In this document: positions 4,101 through 39,928 of the stretch, piece by piece
Position numbering within the stretch: the first letter of the stretch is position 1
Layout of the letters: each line of letters starts with the position of its first letter
NCBI GenBank assembly: GCA_964013405.1
Contig: CAXGWI010000004.1
Location: 1,673 to 65,672 of the forward strand
Reading direction: 5' to 3'
DNA: 64,000 nt
DNA from: an uncultured Myxococcales bacterium
Lineage (GTDB): Bacteria; Myxococcota; UBA4151
The notes under the pieces: model-generated
What the model was told of the DNA's origin: nothing
Database searches by the model: none
Seen by the model: only the letters and a program-made list of their open reading frames with translations
Made by a program: the position numbers and the translations under genes

Positions 4101-4444
4101 GGGGGATGATTGAGGAGGTTGCCCCCCGGCGCGTCCTCTTCCGCAAACCATGAGCAGCCGGCCTGAAGTTGCCCACCGAGGGCAGCCGAATCAGCCTCAG
4201 ACAGGAGGCCATAATCAAAGACGGCGAGTAGATTTGGATGATCTAGAAGGGCGAGGGGGCGCCATGTCGAAACGAGCTTAAAGTACCAATCGACCGGTTT
4301 TCGATCGGGACGGGGTTTGTAGACTCGCAGAATCGCTGGCGTTGCATGCTCGACGTGCTCCACCTGCCAGACCCAGGCCTCGGCACCGTCGACAAGGAGA
4401 TTATTGAGTCGGAAGGGGCCAAGGGGGGGCATACTGGCGAGCAT
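1109..4444 (-). CDS. Degenerate Ser/Thr kinase domain + STAND/AAA ATPase + TPR-like helical repeats
   Basis: 1111 aa. Kinase-fold motifs LDHPNLLAVFDYG, APE, TDLYGVG; Walker A GPRGVGKS; Walker B LLIVVEDAH; FQFEHALV; C-terminal amphipathic helical repeats. Confidence 0.85.
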   Translation of the reverse strand: MLASMPPLGPFRLNNLLVDGAEAWVWQVEHVEHATPAILRVYKPRPDRKPVDWYFKLVSTWRPLALLDHPNLLAVFDYGLLSEADSAALGGQLQAGCSWFAEEDAPGGNLLNHPPENWAQCRNSLASVLKGLMHLHGHNLLHGAIRPDQVRLGQGPNPQLKLGGFAIGPEHRLRVLQGPPPGLDAAFAAPELKAGQWRRVRPYTDLYGVGALAHWMVYGQAPSPDEAFRQEAAMALPRSFGFWLRSLLHPEPSQRPWSAYQALAALEQLDQRPRVLLSAMPSPRMSEEAPSQALPPRDPSWQTMGLRLHGLRELPIYGRKKEQHQLWSSLQQVIQNARPRYLRLTGPRGVGKSVLTDWLIQQTRKAGLAQVIVIKHGDDGGPHTGIAGALYRYLRCHNLGPSDILKRCKNLLQSLGAEDPYEWQALCQLLAPDHDVTRVVFESTRQRFQVIENLLRRLAKRRPLLIVVEDAHLGAESLAMIRHLMGLHRMDSFPLCILSREDSSRLSERPAEAKLLGDLVTTGLVNSLPVLSLKPEEFSELLVDGLRLTPDTLEALKWRCEGDLSFALELIRESAEQRLLVAEGDLVALPLEAKTKLPKHLHELWQARVDRALNLLADAGTDGNARQCFELAALLGRQVHREEWEDACRRAGLDTSQDLMNALLAMGLGVGTEEGFQFEHALVTESIIQSCEEQGRRERLAEHSLAVLQEAAARGRGDVRLVRHLERTGRSGEALAPLARAADESMANGHLNQAEAMLNRRRSLLKQTNEARAEDDGIQLAGEIRLALLRRQMKVAWSQIEALEELADGDELMARWAELSAQILEHRGDRDLVPDRLKQAIESFERHGNGDGALRCRLALARHHRVSGNLRDASLELDRLSKVIESPAPSQLAIAHEYHFERGAMAEGSKQLAEATQAYAVSLRHAEQLGHQGRIGQSVMSLADVARRAQNVERAEAWYRRALEAFGRLGSEQVIQVQIQLGFLLFAQARLNDLRKLIDVLEASLFHLGDENLMGQLEALKLGLASRDQDWTEFDRALHELYRLRLDRGLVSIETAELLEATAALVQRANQHQRAEDVLRAALGQWEPLNRLAEVNRIQAQLAELSAINKE

Positions 4445-24721: not shown

Positions 24722-26386
24722 GCTTTTGCGGAGCATCTGACGCAAGGACTGCGCTTTGGGGTTCGACTCGAGGGCGAGGCCCGCATCGACGGCTTTCAGT
24801 GCCTCTTCAACTTGGCCACCTCGAGCCAAAGCGCCGGCCCGATTGAAATGGGCCTCCGCAAGAGAAGGGTCGATCGCCACCGCCATCCGCCAACTTCGCA
24901 GAGCCTCTCTATGCTGTTGGCCTTGGGCAAAACGCACGCCCTGATTATTGAGCGACCTGGCCATCTCCGGTGCCTCTGCCCCTAACCATCGACGGACCTC
25001 GGGAAGGGCTTCTGGGGGATGGGCAGTGCCCTTGGGCCAGCGATGCAGCCAGTGGTAAATCGCCTCTCGCGGTGGCGAGAAGTCTGGGTCGAGTACGGCG
25101 GCCTTCAGGTGGGCGTCGAGGGCTTCTTCAGCCTGTCCCGTTGCCTCAAGGCTGCTGCCCCAAAGCGCCTGGGCGAGCGCACTATTGGGCACCAGAGTCA
25201 CCACTTCCTGGTGGCGTTCATGCAGTGGTTTTTGGTTCCTGGTTTCACCGTGAATCAAAACCGCGGCCGGGATCACGAAGAGCAGTAACCATCGCAGACC
25301 ATGGCCATAACGTTGGCCTGTTTGTTGGCCAGGGGAGCGATGCTTGCTTTCGATCCCTAGATCCCGGCGTGTCTCCCCATGATTGAGCTTCCAAATGAAA
25401 CCATCGTAATAAAAGTGGAGCAGTTGGCTCGCGGCCAATAGCCCCGTGGTCAGGCCATAGGCGGTGCTGCCGGCCTCGCCGATGGGGGGCAGGGCGCCGT
25501 AACCCAGACAGAGGAGGACATAGAGCCCTAGACCCAGGGCCCCGCCGGCGAAGAGCCGGCGACTCAGGGGGCCGAGGGTCGCGCCACTCTCGGCTCTGCG
25601 TCGATTGAAGAGCCAGACGATCGTCAAATACTGGATGTCGTGAAAGACCTCGAAGAGCGGCAAGGCCAGAAGGATGTTGCTGACCGCGAGGTTGGCCCAG
25701 GCCCACGTGCCGATGCTTGAAAAAAGAAGCAGGATTTTGGCCGGGCTTGGCCCGCGGCCCTGGGCGTGACTACTGATGGCATTTGCAAGCCACATCACGA
25801 AGACGACGACGCCGGTGGCAATGCCTAGTTGGTGAACCCACATCAAGGTGCTCGCCGTGGGGAGGCCAAAGCCCGCGTGGGACAGCATTTGAAGAACGAA
25901 TTGGAGCCGGCCCGGGGAGAGCAGGACAACCAGGCCGAAGCCGACGAGGACTAAGGCGAGGTCCAGCCGCGCGGTACGCCCGTCGACGCAGCCCCACTTC
26001 GCATCGTAAATTCTCGCGAAGCCATGGCTCTGGAGGGCGGCGTGCCAAATACCCCAGATGAAGGCCATGAAGATCAGGCTTTGGAGTTGGTAGAGTGCAC
26101 AAGCCATGCAGGCAGCGGCCAAAAAGGCTGGCGCCGCGATGAAGCGGAAGCGGAAACGCTTAAAGAGTTGGCGGTCACCATAGGCCCGGACCATCCCGGG
26201 TAAATGATGCCCCTGGGCACCAAAGGTCATGATCCACTCGTTGAGTTGGGCCGCTGTGCTGAGCCCGAGCCCCAGGCAGCCAAAAAGGGCTGGGATGACC
26301 AAAGCCGGTGTGGCGATGACCAACAACAAGTCAGGCCCTTTTCCGACCAGCCAGATGTTTGGAGCGTCAGCGGGCTGCGAGCTCAC
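24614..26386 (-). CDS. Polytopic membrane protein with His motifs and C-terminal TPRs
   Basis: Multiple hydrophobic helices; GHHLPG, WHAALQSHG, FHDIQY, LHFYYDGFIW; TPRs (AEAHFNRAGAL). GTG 26386 overlaps the upstream stop. Confidence 0.75.
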   Translation of the reverse strand: MSSQPADAPNIWLVGKGPDLLLVIATPALVIPALFGCLGLGLSTAAQLNEWIMTFGAQGHHLPGMVRAYGDRQLFKRFRFRFIAAPAFLAAACMACALYQLQSLIFMAFIWGIWHAALQSHGFARIYDAKWGCVDGRTARLDLALVLVGFGLVVLLSPGRLQFVLQMLSHAGFGLPTASTLMWVHQLGIATGVVVFVMWLANAISSHAQGRGPSPAKILLLFSSIGTWAWANLAVSNILLALPLFEVFHDIQYLTIVWLFNRRRAESGATLGPLSRRLFAGGALGLGLYVLLCLGYGALPPIGEAGSTAYGLTTGLLAASQLLHFYYDGFIWKLNHGETRRDLGIESKHRSPGQQTGQRYGHGLRWLLLFVIPAAVLIHGETRNQKPLHERHQEVVTLVPNSALAQALWGSSLEATGQAEEALDAHLKAAVLDPDFSPPREAIYHWLHRWPKGTAHPPEALPEVRRWLGAEAPEMARSLNNQGVRFAQGQQHREALRSWRMAVAIDPSLAEAHFNRAGALARGGQVEEALKAVDAGLALESNPKAQSLRQMLRKSLRPDRHHLDDKNISHPDTQSEPQGKVDHGTQKDTD

Positions 26387-28653
26387 GGTAAGGCGAACCA
26401 GCGATGAATCCACCACTGGCCATCCCGGCGGAGCATAAAGGCTTCGTCAGCGACTTCGAGGGTGGCGCGACAGCCGGTGTCGGTTGCGACGCAATCCACG
26501 GCTCGCACCCCTTCAGGACTGCGGATGGCCAAGTCCCAAGCAGCTTGGGGCCACCAGGGATGATCGAAGGTGAGTTCAAGGCTCAGTCCATCGCGAGTCC
26601 ACTGGATCCAAGCTGGCTCTTCCAGGTCGATGGGGCCCGCTCCACCCTGGCAATCGTAGTCTTGGATCGCGCCACTCGGGTATCGCAACCGCCCTGTGCT
26701 GCTACCACTCATGAGCCATGGGGAGAGCCCGAGGCGTAGTTGCCCTTGAATATCTCGGCGGGCAAATCGGCTGGAGCCCGCTTCCTGGACAGCAAAGCCA
26801 CTGCCGACGGTCGCGACGTATCGACTCTTTGCTCGCAGCGTACAGCGGGGGCTGGCGCCTCGCTGCGGGACCTCCCTATAGAGGGTAGGCCGGCCTTCTT
26901 GGGGCATCATGAGGATCTCTAAATAACCGTCTTGGTCCAGATCGACACGGGTCAGGCCCCGGGTGGCTTGAAGGCCGCCGAGGGGGCTCGCTGCTGTCGG
27001 TCCGTGCTCTTCGATCCCGACCTCCTCGGTGACCGCCCGGAAGTTCCCCTCTTGGTCCTGAAGAAAGAGAATGTCGTCGTGGAGTGGGTGCGGCTCCGGA
27101 CCCACCGAGCCTTGGCCGATCAAGACGTCATCGAAGCCATCTCGGTTAAAATCCTCTACCGAAACACCCCAGGCATAGAGCAGTTGTTGCTCCGAGCTGG
27201 TCAGATCCAAGCCTAACTCGAAGGCTCGATTCACCGGCTCACCATCGACGAATTGAACGACCCGGTTTGGGCCCCAATCCGAGATGTAGAGGTGTTCGCC
27301 GAGGCCTTCTACATGGAGATTTCCGATGCCCATAAAGGAGCCCCAAGCGCTGTCGCCGGTGCCGAGCAAGCGCCGGTCGAAAAGGCAGGGCTCAAGGGGG
27401 CTGCAGCTGAAGTAGACCGCACCGGGTGTCATCTCGGTATGGCCCGGATCAGCGAGGGTCGAAAAGGTGTCGTTGGCGACGACGAGATCGAGCAACCCAT
27501 CCCCGTTCACGTCCAAGCTACTCAGACCCAGGGTGGATCCGTCGTCGGCGAGGAGTTCGTCATAGTCCGCATCGAAAAGGGTGAAGGTGCCATCAACCAG
27601 TTGCTTCAATGCGATGTTGGAACGGATCGCTCGCACGGGTAGAGGGCGCCCATTGACTTGGGTCGCACCCAGTTGACAGCCGACGACCAAATCGACGAGC
27701 CCGTCTCGGTCGAGGTCGATCCATTCCATCGCGCCTGCTTTGCAGAAGGTTCGATAATCCTGATTGCCTAGCAGCGACATCAGGTTTGTGACCTCAGGCT
27801 CCGGATAGAAGCGCTTGAACTGGAGGCCCTGCTCACCAAGCATCAGCAGTTCGTGTTTGCCATCGTGCTCTAGATCGATGGCCCAGCCACTGTTCCAGGT
27901 GGTCGGTTCCCATTGGCAGGCCTCGGCCACCACCTCGAAGCGGAGGGTGCCCGGGGTCGACTGATTACGATAGAGACAGGGGGGCGAGTAGTCAGCGGTG
28001 CGCAAACTGCTGGCACCTAGAAAAAGGTCCAAATCGCCGTCGCCATCGAAGTCGAGTAGGCCGCCCCCAAAGCCATAGCCTTGGTCGAGTGCCTCGCCAT
28101 CAGCACCGGTGTGGAGCGTGATGGGGAAGACTTCGATCTTCTCGAACTGCACCCCCTCCGGGCTTACAGGTCGCTCGATACATTGGTGGGCCACGCAGCG
28201 ACTCTCTTCAGGGCAATCGCCGTGGACGAGGCATTCCCCTTGATAGCAACGGCCAAAGGTTGAACAGCGCCAGTCCGTAGGACAGTCCTCCCCCTGGGTG
28301 CAGGGCACGTCTTGGGGCCGCAAGCAGCGGCCCTCACTGCACACGGATTCTCCGTCACAGTCTTCAGTTTGGAGGCACTCATCTTCTGTACAGCGACCCT
28401 GGAGGCAGCGTTGCCCTGGGCCGCAACTGTCTTCGTCGCAGCGCCGCTGACAACGGGCATCGACGCAGACCGCATCCCCTGGACAGGGGAGATTGTCTCG
28501 GCAGGTGAGCGCTTCGCAAACACCCTGCCGGCACTGCTCGAATTCTTGGCACAATCCGCAGGCGTCACCGGCGTCAATGGCGCCCCCGTCCGGCGCGGGG
28601 TCGCTGCCCGGGCAGGCGATGAGAATGAAGATGAGGACAACGAGTGGTCTCAT
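26383..28653 (-). CDS. Cys-rich + FG-GAP/VCBS (CRTAC1/ASPIC-UnbV-like) lipoprotein, paralogue A
   Basis: LIA-C; Cys-rich repeats; GYGFGGGLLDFDGDGDLDL; AWG..EDFNRDG; LRYPSG; ATGA overlap at 28653. Confidence 0.82.
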   Translation of the reverse strand: MRPLVVLIFILIACPGSDPAPDGGAIDAGDACGLCQEFEQCRQGVCEALTCRDNLPCPGDAVCVDARCQRRCDEDSCGPGQRCLQGRCTEDECLQTEDCDGESVCSEGRCLRPQDVPCTQGEDCPTDWRCSTFGRCYQGECLVHGDCPEESRCVAHQCIERPVSPEGVQFEKIEVFPITLHTGADGEALDQGYGFGGGLLDFDGDGDLDLFLGASSLRTADYSPPCLYRNQSTPGTLRFEVVAEACQWEPTTWNSGWAIDLEHDGKHELLMLGEQGLQFKRFYPEPEVTNLMSLLGNQDYRTFCKAGAMEWIDLDRDGLVDLVVGCQLGATQVNGRPLPVRAIRSNIALKQLVDGTFTLFDADYDELLADDGSTLGLSSLDVNGDGLLDLVVANDTFSTLADPGHTEMTPGAVYFSCSPLEPCLFDRRLLGTGDSAWGSFMGIGNLHVEGLGEHLYISDWGPNRVVQFVDGEPVNRAFELGLDLTSSEQQLLYAWGVSVEDFNRDGFDDVLIGQGSVGPEPHPLHDDILFLQDQEGNFRAVTEEVGIEEHGPTAASPLGGLQATRGLTRVDLDQDGYLEILMMPQEGRPTLYREVPQRGASPRCTLRAKSRYVATVGSGFAVQEAGSSRFARRDIQGQLRLGLSPWLMSGSSTGRLRYPSGAIQDYDCQGGAGPIDLEEPAWIQWTRDGLSLELTFDHPWWPQAAWDLAIRSPEGVRAVDCVATDTGCRATLEVADEAFMLRRDGQWWIHRWFALP

Positions 28654-30755
28654 GGGCGGAACCACCGGGCCAACCAGCGGCCATTGATGTTGATCATGAA
28701 GGCGTCTTGCTCGGCGAAGGGCAGCACCCATTCCGAGCCCTCTGCTGTGAATTGCCCCTCAGAAGGACCGTTCTCCTCGTCTTGATAGGCTGCGATCAAT
28801 ACGGGGTCTGGTCCAAGCCAGGGAGCGTCCAGTTGGACTCGGGCCTCCGTGGCTGAAAACTCCACATGGATCCAATCCGGCTCGATCACTTCGATGGGGC
28901 CTGGGCCGCCCTGGCAGTCATAGTTGACGAAGGCACCGCTGGGAAAACGCAGTTGGCCCCGCCCATAGGGCGTGAAGATCCATGGCGAAGTGTTCATGAA
29001 GAGTTGACCCTGAACATCCCAATTGCGCAGCCGTTCTTCACCCTCGGGCAGCACGCCATAACCGGTGCCAAAGGTCGGGACGACCCGAGGTCTGGGGACG
29101 AGGGTACAGCGCGGAGGATCTTGGCGTTGGATAGGCACCTCCGCATGATGGAGGAACAGGCCTTGGTTCGGAGCGGTGATCAAGTCAGCGTAGCCATCGT
29201 AATCGAGGTCTAGCTTCACGGCAGCGCGGCTGCTGTGAACGATCTCATCGCTCATGGAGTCGACATGACTTGGCAAGGAGATACCGATCTCTTCGCTGTA
29301 GCCCTCGAAGCGAGCATTCTCACCTTGGAGAAGTAACGTATCTTGGTGGTCGGGACCGCCGATGTCTCCGGCCACCGGGACGATACCCTGACTCACAAAG
29401 AGATCCTCCAGTCCGTCTCGGTTCCAATCATCGACGACGACCCCCCAGCTATAGATCCATGTTCCATTCCGCACGCCGATCCCGACCCGTACTTCTTCGG
29501 CTCGATCCACCGGGCTGCGGCCATCGAAGCCGATCAGACGGTTGGGCCCCCACTCGGAGATATAGAGGTGGGCACCGAGGCCCTCCACATAAATGTGGCC
29601 GAGCCCCATGAAGCTACCCCAGGCCGCATCACCCCGAGCAAAGCGCTGGCTCTCAAAAACACAGAGCTCATCCAATGGTGAGCACCGCCAGAAGATGGAG
29701 CCGGGATTGAGATCATAAGCCACTTGAACGGAGAGCGGACTGGTAAAGGTGTCGTTCATCACCGGAATGTCCATCAGCCCATCATCATTGAAGTCCAGAG
29801 CGCCGATGCCGAGGCTCGACCCTTCGTCGTTGAGTAGGTACCAAGCATGGCGCTCTTCCGGCTCCAGGCTGCCCTCTGGGGTTTGCAGGTAGAGCACGTT
29901 TTCTCGCATCTCGGGGTTGCTCTGAGAACGAGACTCCGTCTGACAGCCGATGTAGAGATCGACCAGCCCATCGTAGTTGAAATCATGGGCGAGGGCAGCG
30001 CCAGCAAAACAGTACCCGCGCCGATCATTACGGGGGATCTTAGCCAGTAGGTTGATCCGTTCTTCTTCCGGGTAAAACCGCTGCAGCAGGAGCGTGCCTT
30101 GTCCCATGATGAGGAGTTCGTGGAAGCCGTCGCCCTCTAGGTCGATGGCGCTGGCATTGCTGCGTTCTTCTGCGAAGGTGTCGTGGGGTTGGCAGAATCG
30201 TGCCACGGCAACAAAGTCCGTGCGACCCGGAGTCGACCGGTTCTGGTACAGGCAGGCCGGGCTACCGTCGCCGTCCTTCGGGTTGCTGGCCAGGTAGAGA
30301 TCGAGATCCCCATCCCCATCGTAGTCGAGCAGGGCAAGACCAATACCGTAACCATTGGTCTCGTAGCCATGATGACTTGCGAAGGGCTCGGCCATACGGC
30401 GCTCGAGGAGAACGCCGTGCTCGGCCTCAGGCCGGTCGACGCAACGCTGTTGAAAGCAGCGCTGAGTTGGGGGGCAGTCCGGGTGGTGCCAACAGGTACC
30501 CTCAGCGCAATGTCCTGTTTCGAGACAGGACGCTCCCTCCGGACAGTCGCTTTGGCTTGTGCACGGAGTGGGTTCGCAGGCTTCGCAACTCGGAAAGTAA
30601 TCAGGCCGTGAAACCCCGCCGTCTTGGCCGGTGAGACCAGCGTCCGAAACAGGAGCAATACCCCCGTCTGAGGACGGTGGTGGCCCCCCGTCCGGTGGCG
30701 GAGATGCCCCGGGGCAGGCGCAGACCAGCGCGGCGATTAAGGCAGTTCGAACCAT
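28650..30755 (-). CDS. Same family, paralogue B
   Basis: VCA-C; DYDGDGDLDL, CLYQNRS, SSRAAVKLDLD, LRFPSG, RWLARWF. Confidence 0.82.
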   Translation of the reverse strand: MVRTALIAALVCACPGASPPPDGGPPPSSDGGIAPVSDAGLTGQDGGVSRPDYFPSCEACEPTPCTSQSDCPEGASCLETGHCAEGTCWHHPDCPPTQRCFQQRCVDRPEAEHGVLLERRMAEPFASHHGYETNGYGIGLALLDYDGDGDLDLYLASNPKDGDGSPACLYQNRSTPGRTDFVAVARFCQPHDTFAEERSNASAIDLEGDGFHELLIMGQGTLLLQRFYPEEERINLLAKIPRNDRRGYCFAGAALAHDFNYDGLVDLYIGCQTESRSQSNPEMRENVLYLQTPEGSLEPEERHAWYLLNDEGSSLGIGALDFNDDGLMDIPVMNDTFTSPLSVQVAYDLNPGSIFWRCSPLDELCVFESQRFARGDAAWGSFMGLGHIYVEGLGAHLYISEWGPNRLIGFDGRSPVDRAEEVRVGIGVRNGTWIYSWGVVVDDWNRDGLEDLFVSQGIVPVAGDIGGPDHQDTLLLQGENARFEGYSEEIGISLPSHVDSMSDEIVHSSRAAVKLDLDYDGYADLITAPNQGLFLHHAEVPIQRQDPPRCTLVPRPRVVPTFGTGYGVLPEGEERLRNWDVQGQLFMNTSPWIFTPYGRGQLRFPSGAFVNYDCQGGPGPIEVIEPDWIHVEFSATEARVQLDAPWLGPDPVLIAAYQDEENGPSEGQFTAEGSEWVLPFAEQDAFMININGRWLARWFRP

Positions 30756-32809
30756 CGAGCGATCCAGCGATTGTCCAAGGCGACCATGAGCCCATCGTCG
30801 CCCGGTTGGCTTGCCAGGGCAAGACGGGGGGCGGCGGGCTGCTCTTCGAGGCGAACCCCACCGGGGGAGCGATAGGCAAGCGTGACCCGCTGCACCGGCT
30901 CAGTGGTCCATTGGAGATCCAGGACCAACTGACCATCCTGGAAGCGCAACCACTCCGGTTCCACCAGTTGCAATGGGCCAGCCTCGTCCTGGCAGTCGTA
31001 GTCCATTTCAAAGCCACTGGCGAAGCGGAAGCGCCCTCGTTGCCAGGGAACGACGGGCCAGGGACTGGTGCCGAAGTAAATCTGACCGGCGACATCCCAT
31101 CGTCGCCAGGAGGCGCTTTCCTGATCTCGATAGGCGTGGCCCAAACCGAAGGTCGGTACATAACGGTCCACCGGCTTGATCGTACATCGAGGCGTTTGGG
31201 AAGGTAATGGGACTTCGCTGTGGAAGCGGGGCCGACCCTCAAAGGCCGCACTGATGATCTCCAAATAACCGTCACTATCGAGATCGGCCTTCACCGCACC
31301 TCGACTGGAGTAAAAACGCTGGTCATCGCCACTGTCGAGTCGGTCGTGACGGGAAATCCCCACCTCGTCGGTGTAGGCCTCGAAACGACCCGCTCGCTGT
31401 AAAAAGATGACGTCGTAATGCTCCTCGCCGGTGGATGCCGAGCCCGGCGCTTCTTCTAGGCCCTGAGCGAGAAAGAGGTCGTCCTTGCCATCTCGATCAA
31501 AGTCATCGGCGAGGGCTCCCCAGGCGAAGAGTAATTGCTCGTCCACGTCCCCGGGTAGGTCCACACCCCACTCGATCCGTCGGTCCACGGGTTGCAGGTC
31601 TTCATCCCAACTCACCAAGCGGTTGGGACCAAAATCGCTGAGGAAGAGATGCTCCCCCAGGCCTTCCAGAAAGAGGTTGGCCACGCCCATGTAGGAGCCG
31701 CTTTGCCCATTGCCCTGGCCGAAGAACCGCAAAGGGTAGGGAAGTTCGGCGCCGGGGCCTGATCGCAAGATCACGAGGCCGGGAGCTGAATCCGAGACCA
31801 ACTCCGGCATGGCCAGGGTCGTGAAACTGTCGTTCGCCAGGACCAAGTCAATGATACCATTATGGTCGATGTCGATGGCACCTATGGCCAAGGTGTTGCC
31901 GCCGTTGACGAGGTCATCCCAGGGATAGCCCTGCATCACGGTAAACTGCCCGTCTGGACCTTGGCGCAGCGGAATGTTCTCCATCCAAAGGTGGCCTTGG
32001 GGACCAGAGGCTCGGGGGGTGGTTTGACAGGCGACGTAGAGATCGAGGAGGCCGTCTAGATCCAGATCGACCGGCAGTGCCGTGGCCACATTGCAACCAG
32101 AGCGACGGTCCTCATCGGGTACCATGGCTAAGAGGTCGATTAACTCCACCTCTGGAAAGAAGCGCTGCAGCAAGAGCGTACGATTCCCCGTCATGAGCAA
32201 CTCATGGCGGCCGTCCCCGTCGAGATCCACGCCCTGGCCGCCCTCGCGGAAGCCTGAGCCAGGCTCACAATGCTCGGGAACGGGCGTCAAAATGAGTTCG
32301 CTCGGGGTACTCTCGTTGGCGTAGAGACAGGCCGGTCGATCCCCAGGGCCCAGTGGCAGCGGGTAGTGACTCGCCAAGTAGAGGTCGAGGTCCCCGTCCC
32401 CATCGGCATCCAACAGAGCCCCGCCAAAGCCATCACTGAAGGTCGTGGGTAGGCGGCTGAAGTGGTTGAGGCCCGGTTCGGGGAATCGACGCTCAAAGAT
32501 CACACCGAACTCACTGCTTGGGCGCATCAGGCAGCGGTTCTCAGAGCAACGTTCTTCAGCCCCGCAGTCCGGGTGTCCGTAGCACTCGCCCCGATAGCAC
32601 CGACCCAGCGTCGAACACTGCTCGTCTACAGCACAGTCCCCATCGGCCTCACAGGCCCCTGGGATCGGCGGCGGTCCAGCGTCGGAGGCGGCGCCGCCGT
32701 CAGTGGTTTGGCCTGCATCGATGGGCGGGACGCCGGCATCTTCAAGCTCGACGGGCTCTGGGCAGCCGAGGGCCAGGCCGATAACGAAAAATCTTAGCGT
32801 ACGAACCAT
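30737..32809 (-). CDS. Same family, paralogue C
   Basis: ALG-C; same motif order; RWIARWF end. Start at 32809 or 32821. Confidence 0.82.
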   Translation of the reverse strand: MVRTLRFFVIGLALGCPEPVELEDAGVPPIDAGQTTDGGAASDAGPPPIPGACEADGDCAVDEQCSTLGRCYRGECYGHPDCGAEERCSENRCLMRPSSEFGVIFERRFPEPGLNHFSRLPTTFSDGFGGALLDADGDGDLDLYLASHYPLPLGPGDRPACLYANESTPSELILTPVPEHCEPGSGFREGGQGVDLDGDGRHELLMTGNRTLLLQRFFPEVELIDLLAMVPDEDRRSGCNVATALPVDLDLDGLLDLYVACQTTPRASGPQGHLWMENIPLRQGPDGQFTVMQGYPWDDLVNGGNTLAIGAIDIDHNGIIDLVLANDSFTTLAMPELVSDSAPGLVILRSGPGAELPYPLRFFGQGNGQSGSYMGVANLFLEGLGEHLFLSDFGPNRLVSWDEDLQPVDRRIEWGVDLPGDVDEQLLFAWGALADDFDRDGKDDLFLAQGLEEAPGSASTGEEHYDVIFLQRAGRFEAYTDEVGISRHDRLDSGDDQRFYSSRGAVKADLDSDGYLEIISAAFEGRPRFHSEVPLPSQTPRCTIKPVDRYVPTFGLGHAYRDQESASWRRWDVAGQIYFGTSPWPVVPWQRGRFRFASGFEMDYDCQDEAGPLQLVEPEWLRFQDGQLVLDLQWTTEPVQRVTLAYRSPGGVRLEEQPAAPRLALASQPGDDGLMVALDNRWIARWFELP

Positions 32810-34968
32810 CGGGCCAACCATCGTCCTTCGATCCGTAACAGGAAGGGGACGCCTCTCGGAACATCGTTGTCTGTGAGCCGGAACCGGCCGGGCTCGAAGG
32901 GGTGAACTTGAACTCGATCACCATCCCTCTGCTGAAGATAAACAAAGGCAGGCGGGGCGCCTAGCCAGGGGGGCTCGATCGTGAGCGCATCGCCTTCAAG
33001 TTGAATCCAGTCGGGCTCCTCCACCACGAGAGGACCGGCGCCGCCCTCGCAATCAAAGGGGACTTGGGCCCCCGAAGGGAACCGGAGCCAGCCCCGGTTC
33101 ATAGGCGCCAAAATCCATGGCGAGGTGCTGACTCGGTGTTGCCCTTGGAGATCCCATTGGCGCCAGCGTTGCCGGTTGGGTTCGGCGACGGCGTGACCCA
33201 GTCCAAAGCCAGGGACGACTCGGTCCACGGGAATCAAGTGACAGCGAGGATCTTGGTCGATGACGGGCTGTTCTGAGTGGATGAGAAGATGACCTTCGAG
33301 ACCGGCCACCAAGATCTCGAGCCAGCCATCGCCATCGAGGTCCGTTCTGGCAGCCCCCCGGCTTGAGAAGGGGCGGTTCGGTTCGGTGGAGTCCAGCGTA
33401 CTGGCCTCGTCGAAGCCGAGTTCTGTATCGTAAGGCTCGAATCGCCCATCGCGCTGGAGGAAGATACGGTCTTGGTGCGCCTGCCAACTCGAATTGGGCT
33501 GGCCATTCATCAGACCGGGCAGCGGGCCTTGAGCCAGGAAGACATCATCTTGACCGTCTCGGTCAAAGTCATCGACGACGATGCCCCAGGCAAAGTTGGG
33601 ATTTTCCGGTGCGCCGGGGTCGGCCATGCCCAGTGACCGGGCGTTGTCCTCAGCAGGCTGGCGACCGAAATCAAGGAGCCGGTTCGGCCCCTCATCGCTT
33701 AACAGGATGAGATCCCGTTCATCGACATGGAGCCGGGCGACCCCCATTAAGCTGTCGTTCGCGACGATGAGATCCAGCAGGCCGTCGTCATCGAGATCGG
33801 TGGCGCTGACCCCCAAGGCACTACCATCGTCGCGCAGGAAGCCCAGGTCACCGTGATCGTCCACCAAGCCGAGAGCTCCTTCCTCGTCTTGGCGCCAAAA
33901 CCGGTTCTCCATGGCCACAAAACGAAGGGCGTTGGCCGGTCGCTCCTCAAGAACGCAACGTTCATTGAAGCCGGTGAGGACACGGGAAAGACCCGTGTCA
34001 CAGGCTGGCAGGCCGAGGCCCAGGTCTTCATATGCACAGGGCTCGCCGGGGAGGCAGCGTCGATATGCACCGCCTAGCAAGGGGTGATATTGGAGTTCTG
34101 GCGTCCCCTCGAGCAGGGCCATGGCTTCCTGGATTACATGGGCGCCGAACTGGCAACCGACGACCAGGTCGACACGACCGTCCATGTCGAGATCGAGGGA
34201 AGAAAAGCTCCCCCCAAGGCAACGTCGGGCCGGATGGTCTTCGGGGAGACCGGCGAGGAGATCGATTCGGCGCTGGCGCCGAAAGTCGATCAACTCCGTC
34301 AGCCCCAAGCCGAACCGTACGAGTTCGTGATGGCCATCGCCATCGAGATCCATGGCCGCGGCGCCGACGGATTCACCGTCGGTGGCATCACAATAGGCGG
34401 TGACCGGCTCGAAATGCAGGAAGCCTGGCCGACTGAGGTTTTCGTAGAGGCAATTAGGGGTCCTGTCCTGTCGCTGGTAGGGCGTCGTCACATAGACATC
34501 CAGATCCTGATCCCCATCGAAATCGAGCAGTGCGAAGCCAAATCCGTAGCCCCCTGACTGACGGCCATAACGATCGCCGCTCCGGTGGCTCGTCAGTTCG
34601 CCGGCGAGGCGCCGTTGAAACCTGGGCAAACTTCGCCGTTGCCGTCGCTGTCCGCACAGACCCTCCACACAGTAGGCAGTCTCGCCGCAATCCCCGTGCG
34701 TAAGACACTCGCCATCATGGCAGGCCCCGGTCACCGAGCAGGCACGCCCGTCTTCGCAGGGCCGGTCATCTGAGCACGGAACTGTACCCCCATCGGGCGG
34801 CCTTTGGGATACGTCCCTTTGCGATCCCCCATCTGGGGCCATATTCCAGCCGCTGTCCTGGCGGGCCTGGACAGGCGCACCAACGTCGGCTGGGGGAGCC
34901 TGTTGTTGGGCGCAAGCCATGGACCCAAGGGCCAGAAGGAGGAGGCTGTGCCCTCGGCGTGGCGTCAT
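32794..34968 (-). CDS. Same family, paralogue D (internally rearranged)
   Basis: SMA-C; same motifs with one insertion and one deletion; ATGA overlap at 34968. Confidence 0.8.
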   Translation of the reverse strand: MTPRRGHSLLLLALGSMACAQQQAPPADVGAPVQARQDSGWNMAPDGGSQRDVSQRPPDGGTVPCSDDRPCEDGRACSVTGACHDGECLTHGDCGETAYCVEGLCGQRRQRRSLPRFQRRLAGELTSHRSGDRYGRQSGGYGFGFALLDFDGDQDLDVYVTTPYQRQDRTPNCLYENLSRPGFLHFEPVTAYCDATDGESVGAAAMDLDGDGHHELVRFGLGLTELIDFRRQRRIDLLAGLPEDHPARRCLGGSFSSLDLDMDGRVDLVVGCQFGAHVIQEAMALLEGTPELQYHPLLGGAYRRCLPGEPCAYEDLGLGLPACDTGLSRVLTGFNERCVLEERPANALRFVAMENRFWRQDEEGALGLVDDHGDLGFLRDDGSALGVSATDLDDDGLLDLIVANDSLMGVARLHVDERDLILLSDEGPNRLLDFGRQPAEDNARSLGMADPGAPENPNFAWGIVVDDFDRDGQDDVFLAQGPLPGLMNGQPNSSWQAHQDRIFLQRDGRFEPYDTELGFDEASTLDSTEPNRPFSSRGAARTDLDGDGWLEILVAGLEGHLLIHSEQPVIDQDPRCHLIPVDRVVPGFGLGHAVAEPNRQRWRQWDLQGQHRVSTSPWILAPMNRGWLRFPSGAQVPFDCEGGAGPLVVEEPDWIQLEGDALTIEPPWLGAPPAFVYLQQRDGDRVQVHPFEPGRFRLTDNDVPRGVPFLLRIEGRWLARWFVR

Positions 34969-37379
34969 GGCTCCTGGCGGGTCGGGAACCATCGGGGCAA
35001 CCAGCGTCCGTCGATTTTAAACATCATTTGATCCTCGTCCGGTCGCGGCGTGAGGTCCCAGCCGACCCCATCGTGGAATGTGCCCACTTCGCGAACGCCC
35101 GAGGGGGATTGAAACAAGACACGGAACTGGGGAATCCCCCGTCCCGTCCATTGGGTATTGAGCCGAAGTTTCGTGACATTCTCTTGGTAGAGGATTCGGA
35201 TCCACTCCGGTTCCTCGACGATGACCGGGCCGGGGCCATCCTGGCAATCGAACTCGATGATCGCACCGCTGGGAAACCGGAGTCTCCCCTCGTTTATGGT
35301 GCTGAGGATGTAGGGGCTTGCCCCGAAACGTAGCTGCCCCTGCATATCCCGCCGCCGCCATGCATCCCCGCTGCGACCGGCCACTTCGTAACCAAAGCCG
35401 TATGCAGGTACGTATCGAGGTCGAGGCACCAGGGTGCAGCGAGGCAAGACCTCGGCCCGAGTGGGAACCTCTGACTGGATCCGCAGGTGACCCTCCATGG
35501 GCAGGGTGAGGATTTCGACAAAGCCATCATTATCGAGGTCGGCCTTGACGGCCCCCCGGCTCGAATAAACCCAGTCACTGCCGGGGGCATCGATCTGATC
35601 GTGGATACTGAGCCCAACCTCTTCCGGTCCGAGGGCGAGAAACTGTCCATCAGCCTCTTGGAGAAAGAGCCCATCATAATGGGCCTCGAAGACGCCCACC
35701 CGTGGCGAGGGCACGGAGCCCGTACTGACGTAGATGTCGTCCCGCCCATCCCGATCAAAGTCTTCGACGACAACTCCCCAGGCGAATAAATCGAATTCGC
35801 CATTGTAGCCCATATCGATGTCGAGCAGCCTACCCACATCGATGGGGTTACGATTCTCGTAGCGAGTGCATCGGTTGGGGGCGGCATCGCTCACATAGAT
35901 GTGATCTCCCGAGCCCTCGATATGGACGTTACCAAGGCCCATAAAGCTGCCCCAGGCTTCAGTCCCCGGCCCCAGGCCCCGCCAGGTCCAAGTGCAATCT
36001 TCGGCCGGCGCACAACGAAAATAGACGCCGCCCGGCGGCATCGGCGTGTGCTCGTCCCCGGAGTTGACGTCGGAGAACGTGTCATTCGCCACCACCAGAT
36101 CGAGGAGGCCGTCCCGATCCACATCGATCTGGCCCAGCCCGAGCCCAGAACCATCATCTTCAAGGCCATAGCGATCCCCTTGGCGGTCGATCAAAGCCTC
36201 GTCATCGCTAAGTATGAATTGCCCGGACTCGTCTTGAAGAAAGACCTGATTGAGCAGCACGGGAATGTGCATGATTTGTTCCCGGTCGGGCATGTTGTTC
36301 ATGGATAGGCTCTGCATTTGACAGCCGATGATCAAATCGGATCGGCCATCCAAGTTGAGGTCCATGGTGGAGACCGCACCGGCGTTGCAGCCCTTGCGCT
36401 CATCATCATCGGCCAACTGAGCGTTGAGGTCGACGATTTCCACTTCGGGATGAAAGCGCCAAAGTTGGAGCACGCCCTCGCCGAGCGCTAACAACTCCGA
36501 GTAGCCATCGCCCTCCACATCAAGCCCCCAACCGGAGCTGATTTTACCCAATTCAAAGCCGCAAAAAGTCTCGGTTGCTCGAAAGCGGAGGTCGCCTGGT
36601 ATCGACACGTTCTCGTAGACGCACGCGGCGGTTTCATCTTCTCGCTCAAGTAGCTTTTGTCGATAGCCCAAAAAGACATCCAGATCGTTATCTCCATCGA
36701 AGTCGAGGAGGGCTCCACCCAGCCCATAGCCGCGAAAGGCCCCGAATGGCTCCCGGGCCATGTGGTCGGTAAGTGGGGCTGCAAAACGACGTTCGAACTG
36801 GATCCCGAGGGCCGGGTCGATCCGACCAAGGCACCGTCCCTGGCTGCACCGTTGGGTGGGGCTGCAATCATCGTGAACAAGGCATTCGCCCGTAAAACAC
36901 AGCCCGTGGGACGAGCAGGTCCAATCGAGGCCGCAATCCCCATCGGCCTCGCAGGCGGCTTCGCCGAGAAGGATACACCGTTGTTCTTGGCATGCTTCGC
37001 CGCTCGCGCAGTCTGAGATGCTCGCACATTGACTTGGGCCGCATTGGCCCTCCTCGCAGATTTGTCCCTCTGGGCAACGGTCGTCGCCGGCGCAACCACT
37101 TGCGCAGGCGCCATCCCGACAAAGGGAGCCCAAGTCGCACTGATCGTCCGCTGTGCAGACGAGCTGACAGGTTCCGGAGGGGTCACAGCGTTCGTTCGCC
37201 GCACAGTCGCATTTCACGACGCACACACCGTCATCGCAGCGCTCGGTATCTTGGCAGAGTGAGCAGGGATCTAGAGCGGCATCTTGGACCCCCGTATCCG
37301 GCTGGAGGTCCCCCGGCGCCGGACAGGCCAGTAGCAGTGGCAGGGCAAGCCAGATCCCGTGGATTCGCATGCTCGTCAC
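34965..37379 (-). CDS. Same family, paralogue E
   Basis: LLA-C; long Cys-rich N-terminus; RWLPRWF near the end. Confidence 0.82.
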   Translation of the reverse strand: MTSMRIHGIWLALPLLLACPAPGDLQPDTGVQDAALDPCSLCQDTERCDDGVCVVKCDCAANERCDPSGTCQLVCTADDQCDLGSLCRDGACASGCAGDDRCPEGQICEEGQCGPSQCASISDCASGEACQEQRCILLGEAACEADGDCGLDWTCSSHGLCFTGECLVHDDCSPTQRCSQGRCLGRIDPALGIQFERRFAAPLTDHMAREPFGAFRGYGLGGALLDFDGDNDLDVFLGYRQKLLEREDETAACVYENVSIPGDLRFRATETFCGFELGKISSGWGLDVEGDGYSELLALGEGVLQLWRFHPEVEIVDLNAQLADDDERKGCNAGAVSTMDLNLDGRSDLIIGCQMQSLSMNNMPDREQIMHIPVLLNQVFLQDESGQFILSDDEALIDRQGDRYGLEDDGSGLGLGQIDVDRDGLLDLVVANDTFSDVNSGDEHTPMPPGGVYFRCAPAEDCTWTWRGLGPGTEAWGSFMGLGNVHIEGSGDHIYVSDAAPNRCTRYENRNPIDVGRLLDIDMGYNGEFDLFAWGVVVEDFDRDGRDDIYVSTGSVPSPRVGVFEAHYDGLFLQEADGQFLALGPEEVGLSIHDQIDAPGSDWVYSSRGAVKADLDNDGFVEILTLPMEGHLRIQSEVPTRAEVLPRCTLVPRPRYVPAYGFGYEVAGRSGDAWRRRDMQGQLRFGASPYILSTINEGRLRFPSGAIIEFDCQDGPGPVIVEEPEWIRILYQENVTKLRLNTQWTGRGIPQFRVLFQSPSGVREVGTFHDGVGWDLTPRPDEDQMMFKIDGRWLPRWFPTRQEP
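36864..36954 (-). repeat. 91-bp inverted repeat, copy 1
   Basis: Reverse complement matches 37948-38038 at 89/91 positions. Confidence 0.95.
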
Positions 37380-37507
37380 GTCTCGATTCCTTTTCTTGGC
37401 GGCAGCTTAGCCCGAATCTCGCCACCCGCCTATTTCAGTTCTCAAAAACGGGCTCAAGGCTTCCGAACTTGCTGCTAGCGGTCCCGTCCACTAACAATCC
37501 CATAGCC

Positions 37508-39928
37508 ATGAGAGTTCTCCTCATTACAGTTGTTGCTGCCCTTGCTTTGGCCTGCCCGGAGCCCACCGTCATCCCCGACGGCGGCCCATCGCTGCCCGAT
37601 GACGCAGCGGTGACGATCGATGCGGGCCCTTGTTCGGGGCGCTGCGATCAAGCCCAGGTTTGTCATGAGGCCAATTGTTGGTCGCCCTGCCCTTGCGAGG
37701 AAGGACAGTTTTGTGACGAGACGGCGAGCATTTGCCGAGAAGGCTGCCAGGGGGATGAGGACTGCCCTCTTACCCAGCGCTGCTCCGCTGGGCTGTGCGA
37801 ACCGGGCTGTCGAGAGGATGCCCGTTGTCCTGCACCACAGATCTGTCACGAAGAAGCATGTAGAGCGCCTTTTTGTACACTCCGGACGGATTGTGAAACC
37901 GGCGAAGGCTGCCGGTCAGGACGCTGCGAGCAAGTCGGGCAAGACCGCTGCGAGGCCGATGGGGATTGCGGTCTCGATTGGACCTGCTCGTCCCACGGGC
38001 TGTGTTTTACGGGCGAATGCCTTGTTCACGATGACTGCGAGGCTGCAGAGCGTTGTGTCGAGGGCGCATGTGTTCGGCGCCCACGGACGGAAGAGGGGAT
38101 TCTCTTCGAGCGCCGCTTTCCGGCTTATGCAGCCTCCCATAACAGCAGGCTACCCTTCGGTGAAACCACTGGATACGGCTTCGGAGGAGCCCTGCTCGAT
38201 GTCGATGGCGACGGTGATCTCGACCTCTTTATGGGGAGTCGCATCCGTGCAGGAGGAGACGCTTCACCGGCCTGTATTTACGAAAATGTGTCGGTGCCGA
38301 GCCGACTGGACTTCCGACCATGGCCGGGGGGCTGCCCGATGGAGGATTCATTTCTCCATGCCGGGGTCGCATTGGATCTCGAAGGCGATGGTTTCGACGA
38401 ACTGGTCGTCCTTGGTAACTACCGGGCCAGGCTGCTGCGATTTTTCCCTGAGCCAGCGGTCACGGACTTGATCACCCAACTGGATGAGGATGATCCTCGC
38501 CGCCGCTGTGTGGTGGGGGCCGGCTTGCCCCAGGATCTCAACATGGATGGGCGCATCGATTTGATGCTGGGCTGTCAGATCGGCGCCAACATGGGGGACT
38601 TGGTGCGTATGGTGAACATGACCTTTCTCCAGAACCCAGAGGGGCGCTTGGAGTTGGTGGAGCGCGAAGCGGTGGCGGCCTGGGCCGATCCGGGCTCGAC
38701 CCTCGGCCTGGCTGGAATCGATGTGGACTGGGACGGCATGGAAGACTTGGTCGTCCTCAACGACACCTTCTCGACCCATGGAGTGCCGGGGTCTCGAGAA
38801 GAAGGGCTTCAACCCACCATTCAGCACATGCTCCCGGTACCGCTGCTATACCGCCGCTGTTCCCCCCTTGAAGCCTGCGACTACGAGCCATGGTCCTTCG
38901 GTGAGGGGGACCGCGCCTACGGCAGTTTCATGGGGCTTGGGGCGATTCACATCGAAGGGGAGGGAGAGCACTTCTACATCAGCGATTGGGGCTTCAATCG
39001 CCTGATGCGCTTCGGGCCAGACGGTACCTTCAGTGAAATCATTGGCTCCTTGGGGGGAGGCCTCTCCCATGCCGAAGACGTCCTGCTTTTCGCCTGGGGG
39101 GTTTTGGTCGACGATTTGAACCGGGACGGTCGAGACGACCTCCTCGTGAGTCAAGGGATGGTGCCAGATCCCCATTTAGAGCGTTTTCCTCTCCACTACG
39201 ATGCGGCTCTATTGCAGCATGGAGGGGGCTTTGAGGTGCTGAGTGAGGAAGTGGGGCTTTCGGCCTCCGATCACCTCGACAGTCAAAACGAAGATCGAAG
39301 TTATGCCAGCCGGGCCATGGCCCGCGCGGACTTGGATGGTGATGGTTATCTCGACGTGGTTACCTTTGCCCTGGAAGGTAAGGTTCGTTTTCACGCCGAG
39401 GTGCCTCAGGCAGACGGGCTCACGCCCCGCTGCACGCTGATTCCCCGCCCTCGCTACGTTCCTGCCTATGGCACGGGTTACGCCCTCCAGGCCCAGGGCG
39501 GGACCGTTTGGCGGCGCCGGGACGTGCAGGGCCAGTCTCGCCTGGGCTCAAGTCCCCATATTCTCAACCCGGAGGGGCGGGGTACGCTCCGGTTTCCCAG
39601 TGGGTATCGAGCGGCTTTCGATTGCCAGGGGCGACCTGGCCCCTTTGAAGTGACCGAATCCGAGTGGATCCAATTGGTGACCCTCCAAGACGGGGAAGTC
39701 AGCATCAAGATTGCCGCCGACCAGGTTGCTGGAGAGCGGCTCTTGGTGGTCTTTGCGCCAGAACTTGATCCCGGGGACCGCCGCCAGGCCGATCTGGGGC
39801 TTGGTGCCTGCGATGTGGAGGAGGGCTGGTGCCTTTGGCAGACCCAGTTTGTGGCTGAAGAGCAACGCCTGATGTTGCGCCTGGGCTCCCGCTGGATTCC
39901 CCGCTGGTTTACGGCATCGGCACCCTGA
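37508..39928 (+). CDS. Same family, paralogue F (divergent from E)
   Basis: ATG 37508 gives MRVLLITVVAALALA-C; same motif order; RWIPRWF end. Confidence 0.82.
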   Translation: MRVLLITVVAALALACPEPTVIPDGGPSLPDDAAVTIDAGPCSGRCDQAQVCHEANCWSPCPCEEGQFCDETASICREGCQGDEDCPLTQRCSAGLCEPGCREDARCPAPQICHEEACRAPFCTLRTDCETGEGCRSGRCEQVGQDRCEADGDCGLDWTCSSHGLCFTGECLVHDDCEAAERCVEGACVRRPRTEEGILFERRFPAYAASHNSRLPFGETTGYGFGGALLDVDGDGDLDLFMGSRIRAGGDASPACIYENVSVPSRLDFRPWPGGCPMEDSFLHAGVALDLEGDGFDELVVLGNYRARLLRFFPEPAVTDLITQLDEDDPRRRCVVGAGLPQDLNMDGRIDLMLGCQIGANMGDLVRMVNMTFLQNPEGRLELVEREAVAAWADPGSTLGLAGIDVDWDGMEDLVVLNDTFSTHGVPGSREEGLQPTIQHMLPVPLLYRRCSPLEACDYEPWSFGEGDRAYGSFMGLGAIHIEGEGEHFYISDWGFNRLMRFGPDGTFSEIIGSLGGGLSHAEDVLLFAWGVLVDDLNRDGRDDLLVSQGMVPDPHLERFPLHYDAALLQHGGGFEVLSEEVGLSASDHLDSQNEDRSYASRAMARADLDGDGYLDVVTFALEGKVRFHAEVPQADGLTPRCTLIPRPRYVPAYGTGYALQAQGGTVWRRRDVQGQSRLGSSPHILNPEGRGTLRFPSGYRAAFDCQGRPGPFEVTESEWIQLVTLQDGEVSIKIAADQVAGERLLVVFAPELDPGDRRQADLGLGACDVEEGWCLWQTQFVAEEQRLMLRLGSRWIPRWFTASAP
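37948..38038 (+). repeat. 91-bp inverted repeat, copy 2
   Basis: Mismatches to copy 1 only at 37972 and 38035, both synonymous. Confidence 0.95.

What the first reader, a model, noticed from the sequence alone, without database searches (positions are those of the whole stretch)
36864..38038. Candidate invertible cassette: 91-bp intragenic inverted repeats would swap N-terminal modules between two surface lipoproteins
Seen: 36864-36954 and 37948-38038 are inverted copies, 89/91 identical with a 62-bp perfect core, both encoding CEADGDCGLDWTCSSHGLCFTGECLVHDDC in the same codon phase of divergent paralogues E and F. Identity includes synonymous sites and drops abruptly outside, where the proteins are clearly diverged. 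The 993 bp between hold the divergent promoter region, both signal peptides and about 140-147 codons of Cys-rich repeats from each gene. Known: shufflons and intragenic invertons diversify surface proteins this way. Inference: recombination here yields two in-frame chimeras and exchanges their promoters. No site-specific recombinase is in the window, so it would need RecA or a trans-acting invertase. Recent gene conversion is the main alternative.
Basis: partly seen in the sequence, partly recalled or inferred. Interest (0 to 1): 0.85.

Follow-up and report, generated by a model that had tools for sequence, protein, structure and literature searches.

The report
Inverted identity island in paralogous lipoproteins
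Two neighbouring, oppositely oriented surface-protein genes of an uncultured marine bacterium share one short stretch that is kept almost identical by repeated copying between the genes; flipping of the DNA between the two copies is possible on paper but has not been seen.

Summary
Window 36864-36967 and 37935-38038 are inverted copies (104 nt, 93%). The core is 89/91 identical with a 62-nt exact run. Both copies lie in the same reading frame of two divergent CRTAC1-like FG-GAP lipoprotein paralogues, E and F, which are otherwise 53% identical with saturated synonymous sites.

The new result is comparative. A sister species has the same gene pair and its own inverted repeat at the same place. 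Inside the 30-codon tract, 18 informative sites group E with F within a genome and 0 group orthologues. Outside it the counts are 58 against 417. This is concerted evolution, re-homogenised in both lineages after they split, not a single recent event.

No inversion was seen. All sequences available keep the same N-module/body linkage, and the only public reads are short low-depth contigs with no power. Both genomes (93-94% complete) show only an XerC/XerD-type pair, no serine or Piv-type recombinase; RecA is present.

An in-silico flip gives two intact chimeras (809 and 798 aa). It would also exchange the promoter of a tightly packed five-gene array.

Best reading: a homology island sustained by recurrent gene conversion, with inversion as a possible by-product. 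A selected switch is not excluded (about 0.15).

The parts
36864..36967 (-). Left arm of the inverted repeat, inside gene E. The high-identity core is 36864-36954. It encodes residues 140-169 of the 801-aa form.
37935..38038 (+). Right arm of the inverted repeat, inside gene F. The core is 37948-38038. It encodes the same 30 residues in the same codon phase.
36968..37934 (.). Segment between the arms that a crossover would invert. It holds both N-terminal Cys-rich modules, both signal peptides and the intergenic spacer.
   Evidence: the in-silico flip keeps both frames open
37371..37507 (.). 137-nt divergent intergenic spacer. It has blocks conserved in the sister species (78 of 137 alignment columns identical). 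No sigma-70 consensus was found.
34965..37370 (-). Gene E, 801 aa from the ATG (804 from the GTG at 37379). It has a lipoprotein-type signal peptide, a stalk of Cys-rich beta-hairpin repeats (about residues 35-185) and an FG-GAP propeller body like CRTAC1.
37508..39928 (+). Gene F, 806 aa, a paralogue of E (45% aa identity) with the same architecture. It is the only array member on the plus strand.
26383..34992 (-). Four further paralogues (D, C, B, A) packed directly behind E with overlapping stops and starts. They are probably co-transcribed from the promoter upstream of E.

Best explanation
The repeat is an island of concerted evolution. One 60-100 nt segment of two divergently transcribed paralogues is repeatedly copied from one gene to the other. 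The likely mechanism is intrachromosomal gene conversion, either by RecA-type homologous recombination or by replication template switching between close inverted repeats. The segment therefore stays nearly identical inside each genome while it drifts freely between species.

The island lies in the most conserved Cys-rich unit of the family, near the junction of the fast-evolving N-terminal stalk and the FG-GAP body. Once two copies are identical over more than the minimal length that recombination needs, the island can sustain itself. Exchange is confined to it because the flanks are too diverged.

A crossover in the island, instead of a conversion, would invert the 1-kb cassette. That would give two in-frame chimeras and swap the promoters, including the one that probably drives the five-gene array E-D-C-B-A.

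Shown here: the island, its concerted evolution in two species, its uniqueness in the genome, open frames after an in-silico flip, RecA present, and no invertase found. Inferred: the recombination mechanism, and that inversions occur at all.
For: (1) Site patterns in the four-gene codon alignment (E and F of G000, E and F of sister-species contig L027). In the 30-codon tract 18 sites show E0=F0 differing from E1=F1, and 0 show the orthologue pattern. Outside the tract the counts are 58 and 417. Fisher p = 3.7e-16.

(2) Synonymous sites. Among identical residues in the tract, the same codon is used in 28/30 (G000) and 19/23 (sister species) within a genome, but in only 7/23 between species. Outside the tract all comparisons give 0.35-0.49, which is saturation. 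Both lineages were therefore re-homogenised long after their split.

(3) The 5' edge of the island differs between species, being about 30 nt longer in G000. The 3' edge coincides, just after ...HDDC. This fits separate conversion events.

(4) The island is the only same-contig inverted repeat of at least 60 nt and 90% identity in the 3.9-Mb assembly, 1 of 82 high-identity pairs. It is unique among 55 paralogue pairs: longest exact run 62 against 20 for the next pair, once artefacts of overlapping extraction windows are set aside.

(5) The tract holds the family-wide invariant Cys140, 146, 152, 158, 163 and 169. That gives a plausible seed of raised identity.

(6) RecA is present. There is no PF00239, no PF01548, and only an XerD plus an XerC-like gene in G000. 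The tally is the same in G001.

(7) There is a bacterial precedent in the inversely oriented tufA/tufB genes of Salmonella. The passages read treat them as a model of gene conversion, and the rate falls greatly in recA strains (PMC5485169, passages read).
Against: A neutral island this short should erode at its edges. In the sister species the exact run is only about 47 nt. Yet the island has outlasted synonymous saturation between the two species, which could point to selection for keeping it. I made no rate estimate for this lineage.

None of the same-strand neighbours (A to E) has such an island, so conversion is not a general habit of the family.

Conversion itself was not observed. Among three strain-level contigs of the sister species, 4 sites in the arms vary. 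At 2 of them one allele equals the base in the other arm. That is compatible with conversion but equally with plain mutation.

Only two species have DNA for both genes.
Confidence: 0.7

Rival explanations
1. A selected inversion switch. The island is kept because flipping the 1-kb cassette is useful. It recombines two fast-evolving N-terminal stalks with two bodies. It also exchanges the promoter of the five-gene array with that of the single gene F. The flip would be driven by host homologous recombination, by the Xer pair, or by an invertase not assembled in either genome.
For: Both chimeras stay open, at 809 and 798 aa. The arms lie near a module boundary of the model. The island persists at the same place in two species whose synonymous sites are saturated. 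It is unique in the genome and occurs only in the one inverted pair. Three of the four attributes that Milman et al. found enriched in true gene-altering inversions are met: long repeat, short gene distance, and orientation that brings the repeats close (PMC9881135, section 26 read). The same paper notes that some invertible regions lack a nearby recombinase. E heads a packed array, so a promoter swap would have a wide effect.
Against: No alternative orientation was seen in any sequence. This covers G000, three sister-species contigs and a third-lineage E protein. No chimeric protein appeared among 23 and 11 homologues. No joints appeared in contigs of 4 runs, though these have no power. No dedicated invertase was found in two genomes of 93-94% completeness. 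The attribute with the largest weight in Milman et al., a truncated promoterless partner, is not met, because both genes are complete. A swap leaves both genes expressed, so the phenotypic gain is unclear.
Confidence: 0.17
2. Two unrelated one-off conversions. Each lineage happened to suffer a single recent conversion at this spot, with no persistent island and no continuing process.
For: One conversion per lineage is the minimum needed to explain the site patterns. The 5' edges differ between the species.
Against: The flanks are about 50% identical with exact runs of 24 nt or less. Initiating conversion twice, independently, at the same 30 codons of 800 without pre-existing identity is therefore unlikely. 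The 3' edge is shared.
Confidence: 0.08
3. Constraint at the nucleotide level (an RNA or DNA-binding element inside both genes), or an assembly artefact.
For: The identity includes synonymous sites.
Against: Between species the tract is as diverged as its surroundings: 0.66-0.67 nt identity, with the same codon in 7/23 identical residues. The sequence itself is therefore not constrained. There was no Rfam match at E up to 1. Separate assemblies and contigs reproduce both arms with their flanks.
Confidence: 0.03

Closest known systems
tufA/tufB gene conversion in Salmonella enterica (PMC5485169; passages read)
   Same: Two paralogues lie in inverse orientation on one chromosome. [quoted passage not shown] The rate falls greatly in recA strains.
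   Different: The tuf genes are nearly identical over all 1185 nt and lie 762 kb apart. Here only 60-100 nt of two genes that are otherwise 53% identical are homogenised. The copies are 1 kb apart and flank their own 5' ends.
Saccharomyces 'flip/flop' region flanked by continually homogenised inverted repeats (PMC9731477; abstract and section 10 read)
   Same: The inverted repeats group by genome rather than by copy across species. The authors read this as continual homogenisation. In yeast this goes with repeated re-inversion of the enclosed region.
   Different: It is a eukaryote, with 4-kb repeats that hold whole genes and a 24-kb interior. Both orientations were actually found there, and none was found here.
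Gene-altering programmed inversions and shufflon-like systems (Milman et al., PMC9881135, passages and section 26 read; Chanin et al. preprint, PMC10028968, passages read)
   Same: Inverted repeats lie inside coding sequences on opposite strands and close together. Inversion gives alternative in-frame proteins, often surface or specificity proteins.
   Different: Those systems are described as catalysed by recombinases, usually encoded nearby. They typically pair a full gene with a truncated, promoterless partner. Here both genes are complete, the flipped part is the 5' end with the promoters, and no invertase was found.
Ureaplasma MBA / UU172 element (PMC3047005; abstract read)
   Same: DNA inversion at inverted repeats within or next to surface-protein paralogues. 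According to the abstract, chimeric genes can evolve from this.
   Different: The abstract describes site-specific recombination that switches expression between alternative genes, shown experimentally. Here there is no on/off logic and no experiment.
Campylobacter fetus sap locus (recalled from memory; my two searches found no paper on it in the library)
   Same: As I recall it, a promoter-bearing segment flanked by oppositely oriented S-layer gene homologues inverts by RecA-dependent recombination in their conserved 5' regions.
   Different: As I recall it, there is a single promoter, conserved regions of several hundred bp and on/off expression of cassettes. None of this was checked here.

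Membership tests
Concerted evolution of paralogues by gene conversion | Paralogues within a genome are more alike than orthologues between genomes, over a bounded tract | tested here: met
   In the tract there are 18 genome-pattern and 0 orthologue-pattern sites. Outside it there are 58 and 417.
Concerted evolution of paralogues by gene conversion | The homogeneity includes synonymous sites, so it is not protein-level selection | tested here: met
   The same codon is used in 28/30 and 19/23 identical residues within genomes, against 7/23 between species.
Concerted evolution of paralogues by gene conversion | Recombination machinery is present | tested here: met
   RecA (PF00154) hit at E 1e-136 on contig C1.
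Concerted evolution of paralogues by gene conversion | A non-reciprocal transfer event is observed directly | not testable with these tools
   This needs strain series or experiments. The strain polymorphisms are ambiguous.
Gene-altering programmed inversion (attributes of Milman et al., PMC9881135) | Inverted repeats inside two coding sequences on opposite strands, long, with a short distance between the genes and an orientation that brings the repeats close | tested here: met
   The repeat is 104 nt, the spacer 137 nt, and the arms are 967 nt apart.
Gene-altering programmed inversion (attributes of Milman et al., PMC9881135) | Asymmetry: one partner lacks the part from its start to the first repeat | tested here: not met
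   Both genes are full length with their own start and signal peptide.
Gene-altering programmed inversion (attributes of Milman et al., PMC9881135) | [quoted passage not shown] | tested here: not met
   There is none on contig C4. The genome-wide hits are only XerD and an XerC-like gene on C175 and C58. G001 shows the same tally. The genomes are 93-94% complete.
Gene-altering programmed inversion (attributes of Milman et al., PMC9881135) | Both orientations occur within a species or population | tested here: inconclusive
   Three of 3 sister-species contigs and G000 share one linkage. The contigs of 4 runs are at most 456 nt long at depth 2-5 and show no joints.
Serine or Piv-type invertase systems (Hin/Gin, Piv) | A serine recombinase (PF00239) or DEDD/IS110-type recombinase (PF01548) in the genome | tested here: not met
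   0 hits for either family in G000. 0 hits for PF00239 in G001.
CRTAC1 / FG-GAP propeller proteins (the genes that carry the repeat) | FG-GAP repeats and a CRTAC1-like fold | tested here: met
   Pfam FG-GAP_3 and FG-GAP score above cut-off in E, F and D. The model has pLDDT 82.3 and its best PDB match is murine CRTAC1 9etn_A, E 1.1e-16, TM 0.62 by target length.

The most novel reading that the evidence does not exclude
A recombinase-independent inverton kept by selection since before two species split. Host homologous recombination at a 60-100 nt in-frame island flips a 1-kb cassette that carries two promoters, two signal peptides and two fast-evolving Cys-rich stalks. Each stalk and promoter is thereby re-paired with the other propeller body, and the flip switches which promoter drives a five-gene lipoprotein array in an uncultured marine member of the Myxococcota.
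Probability: 0.15. Interest if true: 0.7.

Novelty: new member of a known kind. Interest (0 to 1): 0.4.

Why it matters
The case shows that a very short stretch can escape divergence for a very long time, purely by exchange between two inverted gene copies, inside genes that are otherwise saturated with change. Such islands are exactly what sequence-only inverton finders flag. This case shows how a two-species comparison separates 'kept identical by conversion' from 'recent accident'. It also shows that neither result proves flipping.

If the cassette does flip, it would be a way to reshuffle surface-protein modules and promoters without a dedicated enzyme, in a lineage known only from metagenomes.

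Tried and rejected
Public reads. The one run search found 17 marine or estuary metagenome runs. All are kept as contigs, and the best holds 0.26 of the sampled words. Laying X1, X4, X5 and X7 gave 21 pieces (19 listed) of at most 456 nt at depth 2-5, with no joints and no loose ends. One X1 contig (36815-36983, no mismatch) crosses the whole left arm in the reference orientation. It has only 16 nt beyond the 104-nt arm, or 29 nt beyond the 91-nt core, which is under the tool's own 31-letter rule. These data cannot show or exclude a minority orientation. I could not tell whether the two arms co-vary in the roughly 96%-identical strain of X4, because part of the left arm is uncovered and the difference list is cut.

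More lineages. The metagenome scan gave only two more contigs of the sister species and one distant paralogue, L029 at 34%. A third-lineage E protein exists (P0002, 83% identical to E). Its F partner was not found. The search for shorter proteins returned one unrelated fragment, P0031. The divergent paralogue pair of another genus (G003:C58) has no island; its best inverted match is 46 nt at 87%.

Chimeric proteins in the protein collection. None appeared among the 23 hits for E and the 11 hits for F.

Known RNA families: no match at E up to 1 in 36000-39000. Promoter and terminator consensus in 37250-37650: none.

A sigma-54-type reading of the conserved spacer blocks was considered by eye and dropped, because the spacing does not fit the consensus as I recall it.

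Literature. No paper in the library links Myxococcota with such an inversion. The search returned papers that hold at least two of its three terms, and the listed ones that hold Myxococcota are general surveys. Searches were used for comparison systems. Supplementary tables of Milman et al. and of Chanin et al. list predicted loci that might include relatives.

Full report
WHAT IS THERE. The window is part of contig C4 of a 3.9-Mb, 244-contig, 94%-complete metagenome-assembled genome. A protein of the sister species is named by NCBI 'VCBS repeat-containing protein [Myxococcota bacterium]'. The runs that hold pieces of the stretch are marine or estuary metagenomes, with small shares.

Genes E (34965-37370, minus strand, 801 aa) and F (37508-39928, plus strand, 806 aa) are divergent neighbours. 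They belong to a family with at least 11 copies in this genome, six of them in one array in the window. Both have FG-GAP_3 and FG-GAP repeats. Each has a signal peptide ending in ...LAC, with a nearly invariant Cys16 in the family alignment. Each has an N-terminal region of Cys-rich repeats.

An AlphaFold2 model of E (21-sequence alignment, mean pLDDT 82.3, pTM 0.79) shows a chain of small beta-hairpin units from about residue 35 to 185, followed by a propeller body. Its best match among solved structures is murine CRTAC1 (9etn_A, E 1.1e-16).

THE OBSERVATION. The repeat is real. The arms 36864-36967 and 37935-38038 are 104 nt long and 93% complementary. Both arms encode the same 30 residues in the same codon phase, residues 140-169 of E. 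These hold six of the family's invariant cysteines.

Elsewhere E and F are 53.5% identical in nucleotides and 40% at third positions. In the tract window the values are 94% and 90%. No shuffle of codon columns reached the 62-nt run (0 of 2000, maximum 28).

In the whole assembly this is the only inverted repeat of at least 60 nt and 90% identity on one contig, among 82 high-identity pairs. Among 55 pairs of family members no other pair shares an exact run above 20 nt, once matches caused by my overlapping extraction windows are set aside.

THE KEY RESULT: CONCERTED EVOLUTION IN TWO SPECIES. The one other genome of the same genus (G001) carries the same divergent pair. It has its own inverted repeat at the same position, 86 nt at 87%. 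Two metagenome contigs of that species, 98.8% and 99.2% identical to it, show the same repeat.

In a codon alignment of the four genes the tract is nearly identical within each genome, synonymous sites included. Between genomes it is only 66-67% identical. I counted informative site patterns with the N-free contig L027 as the second species. In the 30 codons of the tract, 18 sites group E with F of the same genome and none groups orthologues. In the rest of the genes the counts are 58 and 417. Fisher p = 3.7e-16.

Between the species, identical residues use the same codon in only 38-47% of cases outside the tract. That is the same range as between paralogues, so synonymous sites are saturated. 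Each lineage must therefore have been re-homogenised long after the split.

The 5' edge differs between the species: G000's island reaches about 30 nt further. The 3' edge coincides, just after ...HDDC. Two independent hits on the same 30 of 800 codons, in genes whose flanks share no exact run above 24 nt, are best explained by an island that already existed in the common ancestor and has kept recombining.

WAS INVERSION SEEN? No. By similarity of the N-terminal modules, E of G000 pairs with E of the sister species and F with F. The third-lineage protein P0002 (83% identical to E) also has an E-type module on an E-type body.

The protein searches returned no chimeric form. After the self hit, E finds proteins at 83%, 75% and then 43% identity; F finds 78% and then 43%. 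These are few independent observations, and three like orientations are expected by chance one time in four.

Public reads could not settle it, being only contigs of at most 456 nt at depth 2-5, without joints.

WHAT COULD DRIVE IT. No serine recombinase and no IS110/Piv-type enzyme was found in G000. The only two tyrosine recombinases score as XerD (above the equivalog cut-off) and XerC-like. G001 gives the same tally for the two families searched there. Both genomes are incomplete at 93-94%, and repeats and mobile DNA are the parts most often missing, so absence is not proven.

RecA is present. The inversely oriented tuf genes of Salmonella are a bacterial model of gene conversion, and the rate falls greatly in recA strains (PMC5485169, passages read). 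Yeast offers a case where continually homogenised inverted repeats go with repeated re-inversion (PMC9731477, abstract and section 10).

From general knowledge, not from a call: recombination between inverted repeats can resolve with or without crossover, and closely spaced inverted repeats can also exchange by template switching at the replication fork.

CONSEQUENCE OF A FLIP (INFERENCE). A script that inverts the segment between the arm midpoints yields two uninterrupted ORFs, of 809 aa (F-type start, E-type end) and 798 aa (E-type start, F-type end).

The segment must carry both promoters, since each gene's upstream DNA is the other gene. No sigma-70 consensus is present, but blocks of the spacer are conserved between the species (78 of 137 columns).

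E is followed without gaps by four paralogues. Its TGA overlaps the ATG of D in ATGA, with AGGAG 5 nt upstream. The starts of C and B lie inside the last codons of the preceding genes. A flip would thus hand the whole array to F's promoter.

The N-terminal modules evolve faster than the bodies. Between species they share 74/135 and 81/147 identical residues, against 506/632 and 509/613 for the bodies. This fits exposed, variable parts.

COMPARISON WITH KNOWN SYSTEMS. Against the attributes that Milman et al. found enriched in verified gene-altering inversions (PMC9881135, section 26), this locus meets repeat length, short gene distance and repeat proximity. It fails the strongest attribute, a truncated promoterless partner, and it has no nearby recombinase. 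It therefore works on paper like a shufflon-type locus, but I do not file it as one.

It meets every testable criterion of concerted evolution by gene conversion. It differs from textbook cases in how small the island is, how diverged its surroundings are, and in lying in inverted orientation around both gene starts.

VERDICT. The interpretation as an invertible cassette is unproven, and the alternative is upgraded to recurrent conversion. My confidence is 0.7 for a conversion-sustained island with inversion at most a by-product, and about 0.17 for a selected switch. The remainder goes to coincident one-off events or other causes. Interest is moderate at 0.4. The mechanism is known, but the persistence of so small an island across species, and its position, make it a good test locus once long reads of this lineage exist.

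Noticed in passing
window 26383-37370, minus strand (junctions at 34965-34968, 32794-32821, 30737-30755, 28650-28731): Five paralogues (E, D, C, B, A) are packed with overlapping stops and starts. E and D overlap in ATGA, with AGGAG 5 nt upstream. The start ATG of C and of B lies inside the conserved C-terminal 'RWF' codons (CGATGGTTC) of the gene before. The array is probably one translationally coupled operon.
   Followed up: partly
window 36955-37370 and 37508-37947 (N-terminal modules of E and F): The Cys-rich N-terminal modules diverge much faster between the two species than the propeller bodies. They share 74/135 and 81/147 identical residues, against 506/632 and 509/613 for the bodies.
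   Followed up: partly
L026 (G001:C85) arms 3060-3145 and 4160-4245, compared with L027 and L028: The Ns in this genome record fall on sites where the two metagenome contigs of the same species differ. Four sites in the arms vary among the three contigs. At two of them one allele equals the base in the other arm.
   Followed up: partly
window 37371-37507: The divergent spacer keeps several blocks identical in the sister species (for example around 37400-37415 and 37480-37500), although synonymous sites are saturated. These are likely regulatory sites of unknown type. There was no sigma-70 consensus match.
   Followed up: partly
G000:C4:1-55 and G000:C5:74737-74791 (outside the window): There is a 55-nt exact match between the start of contig C4 and a stretch of contig C5. 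It looks like an assembler k-mer overlap and may mean the contigs adjoin.
   Followed up: no
P0002 (third-lineage E protein), residues matching E 140-169: In this 83%-identical orthologue the 30-residue tract differs from E at 9 of 30 positions by my count. The tract is thus less conserved between lineages than the protein as a whole, although it contains the family's invariant cysteines.
   Followed up: no
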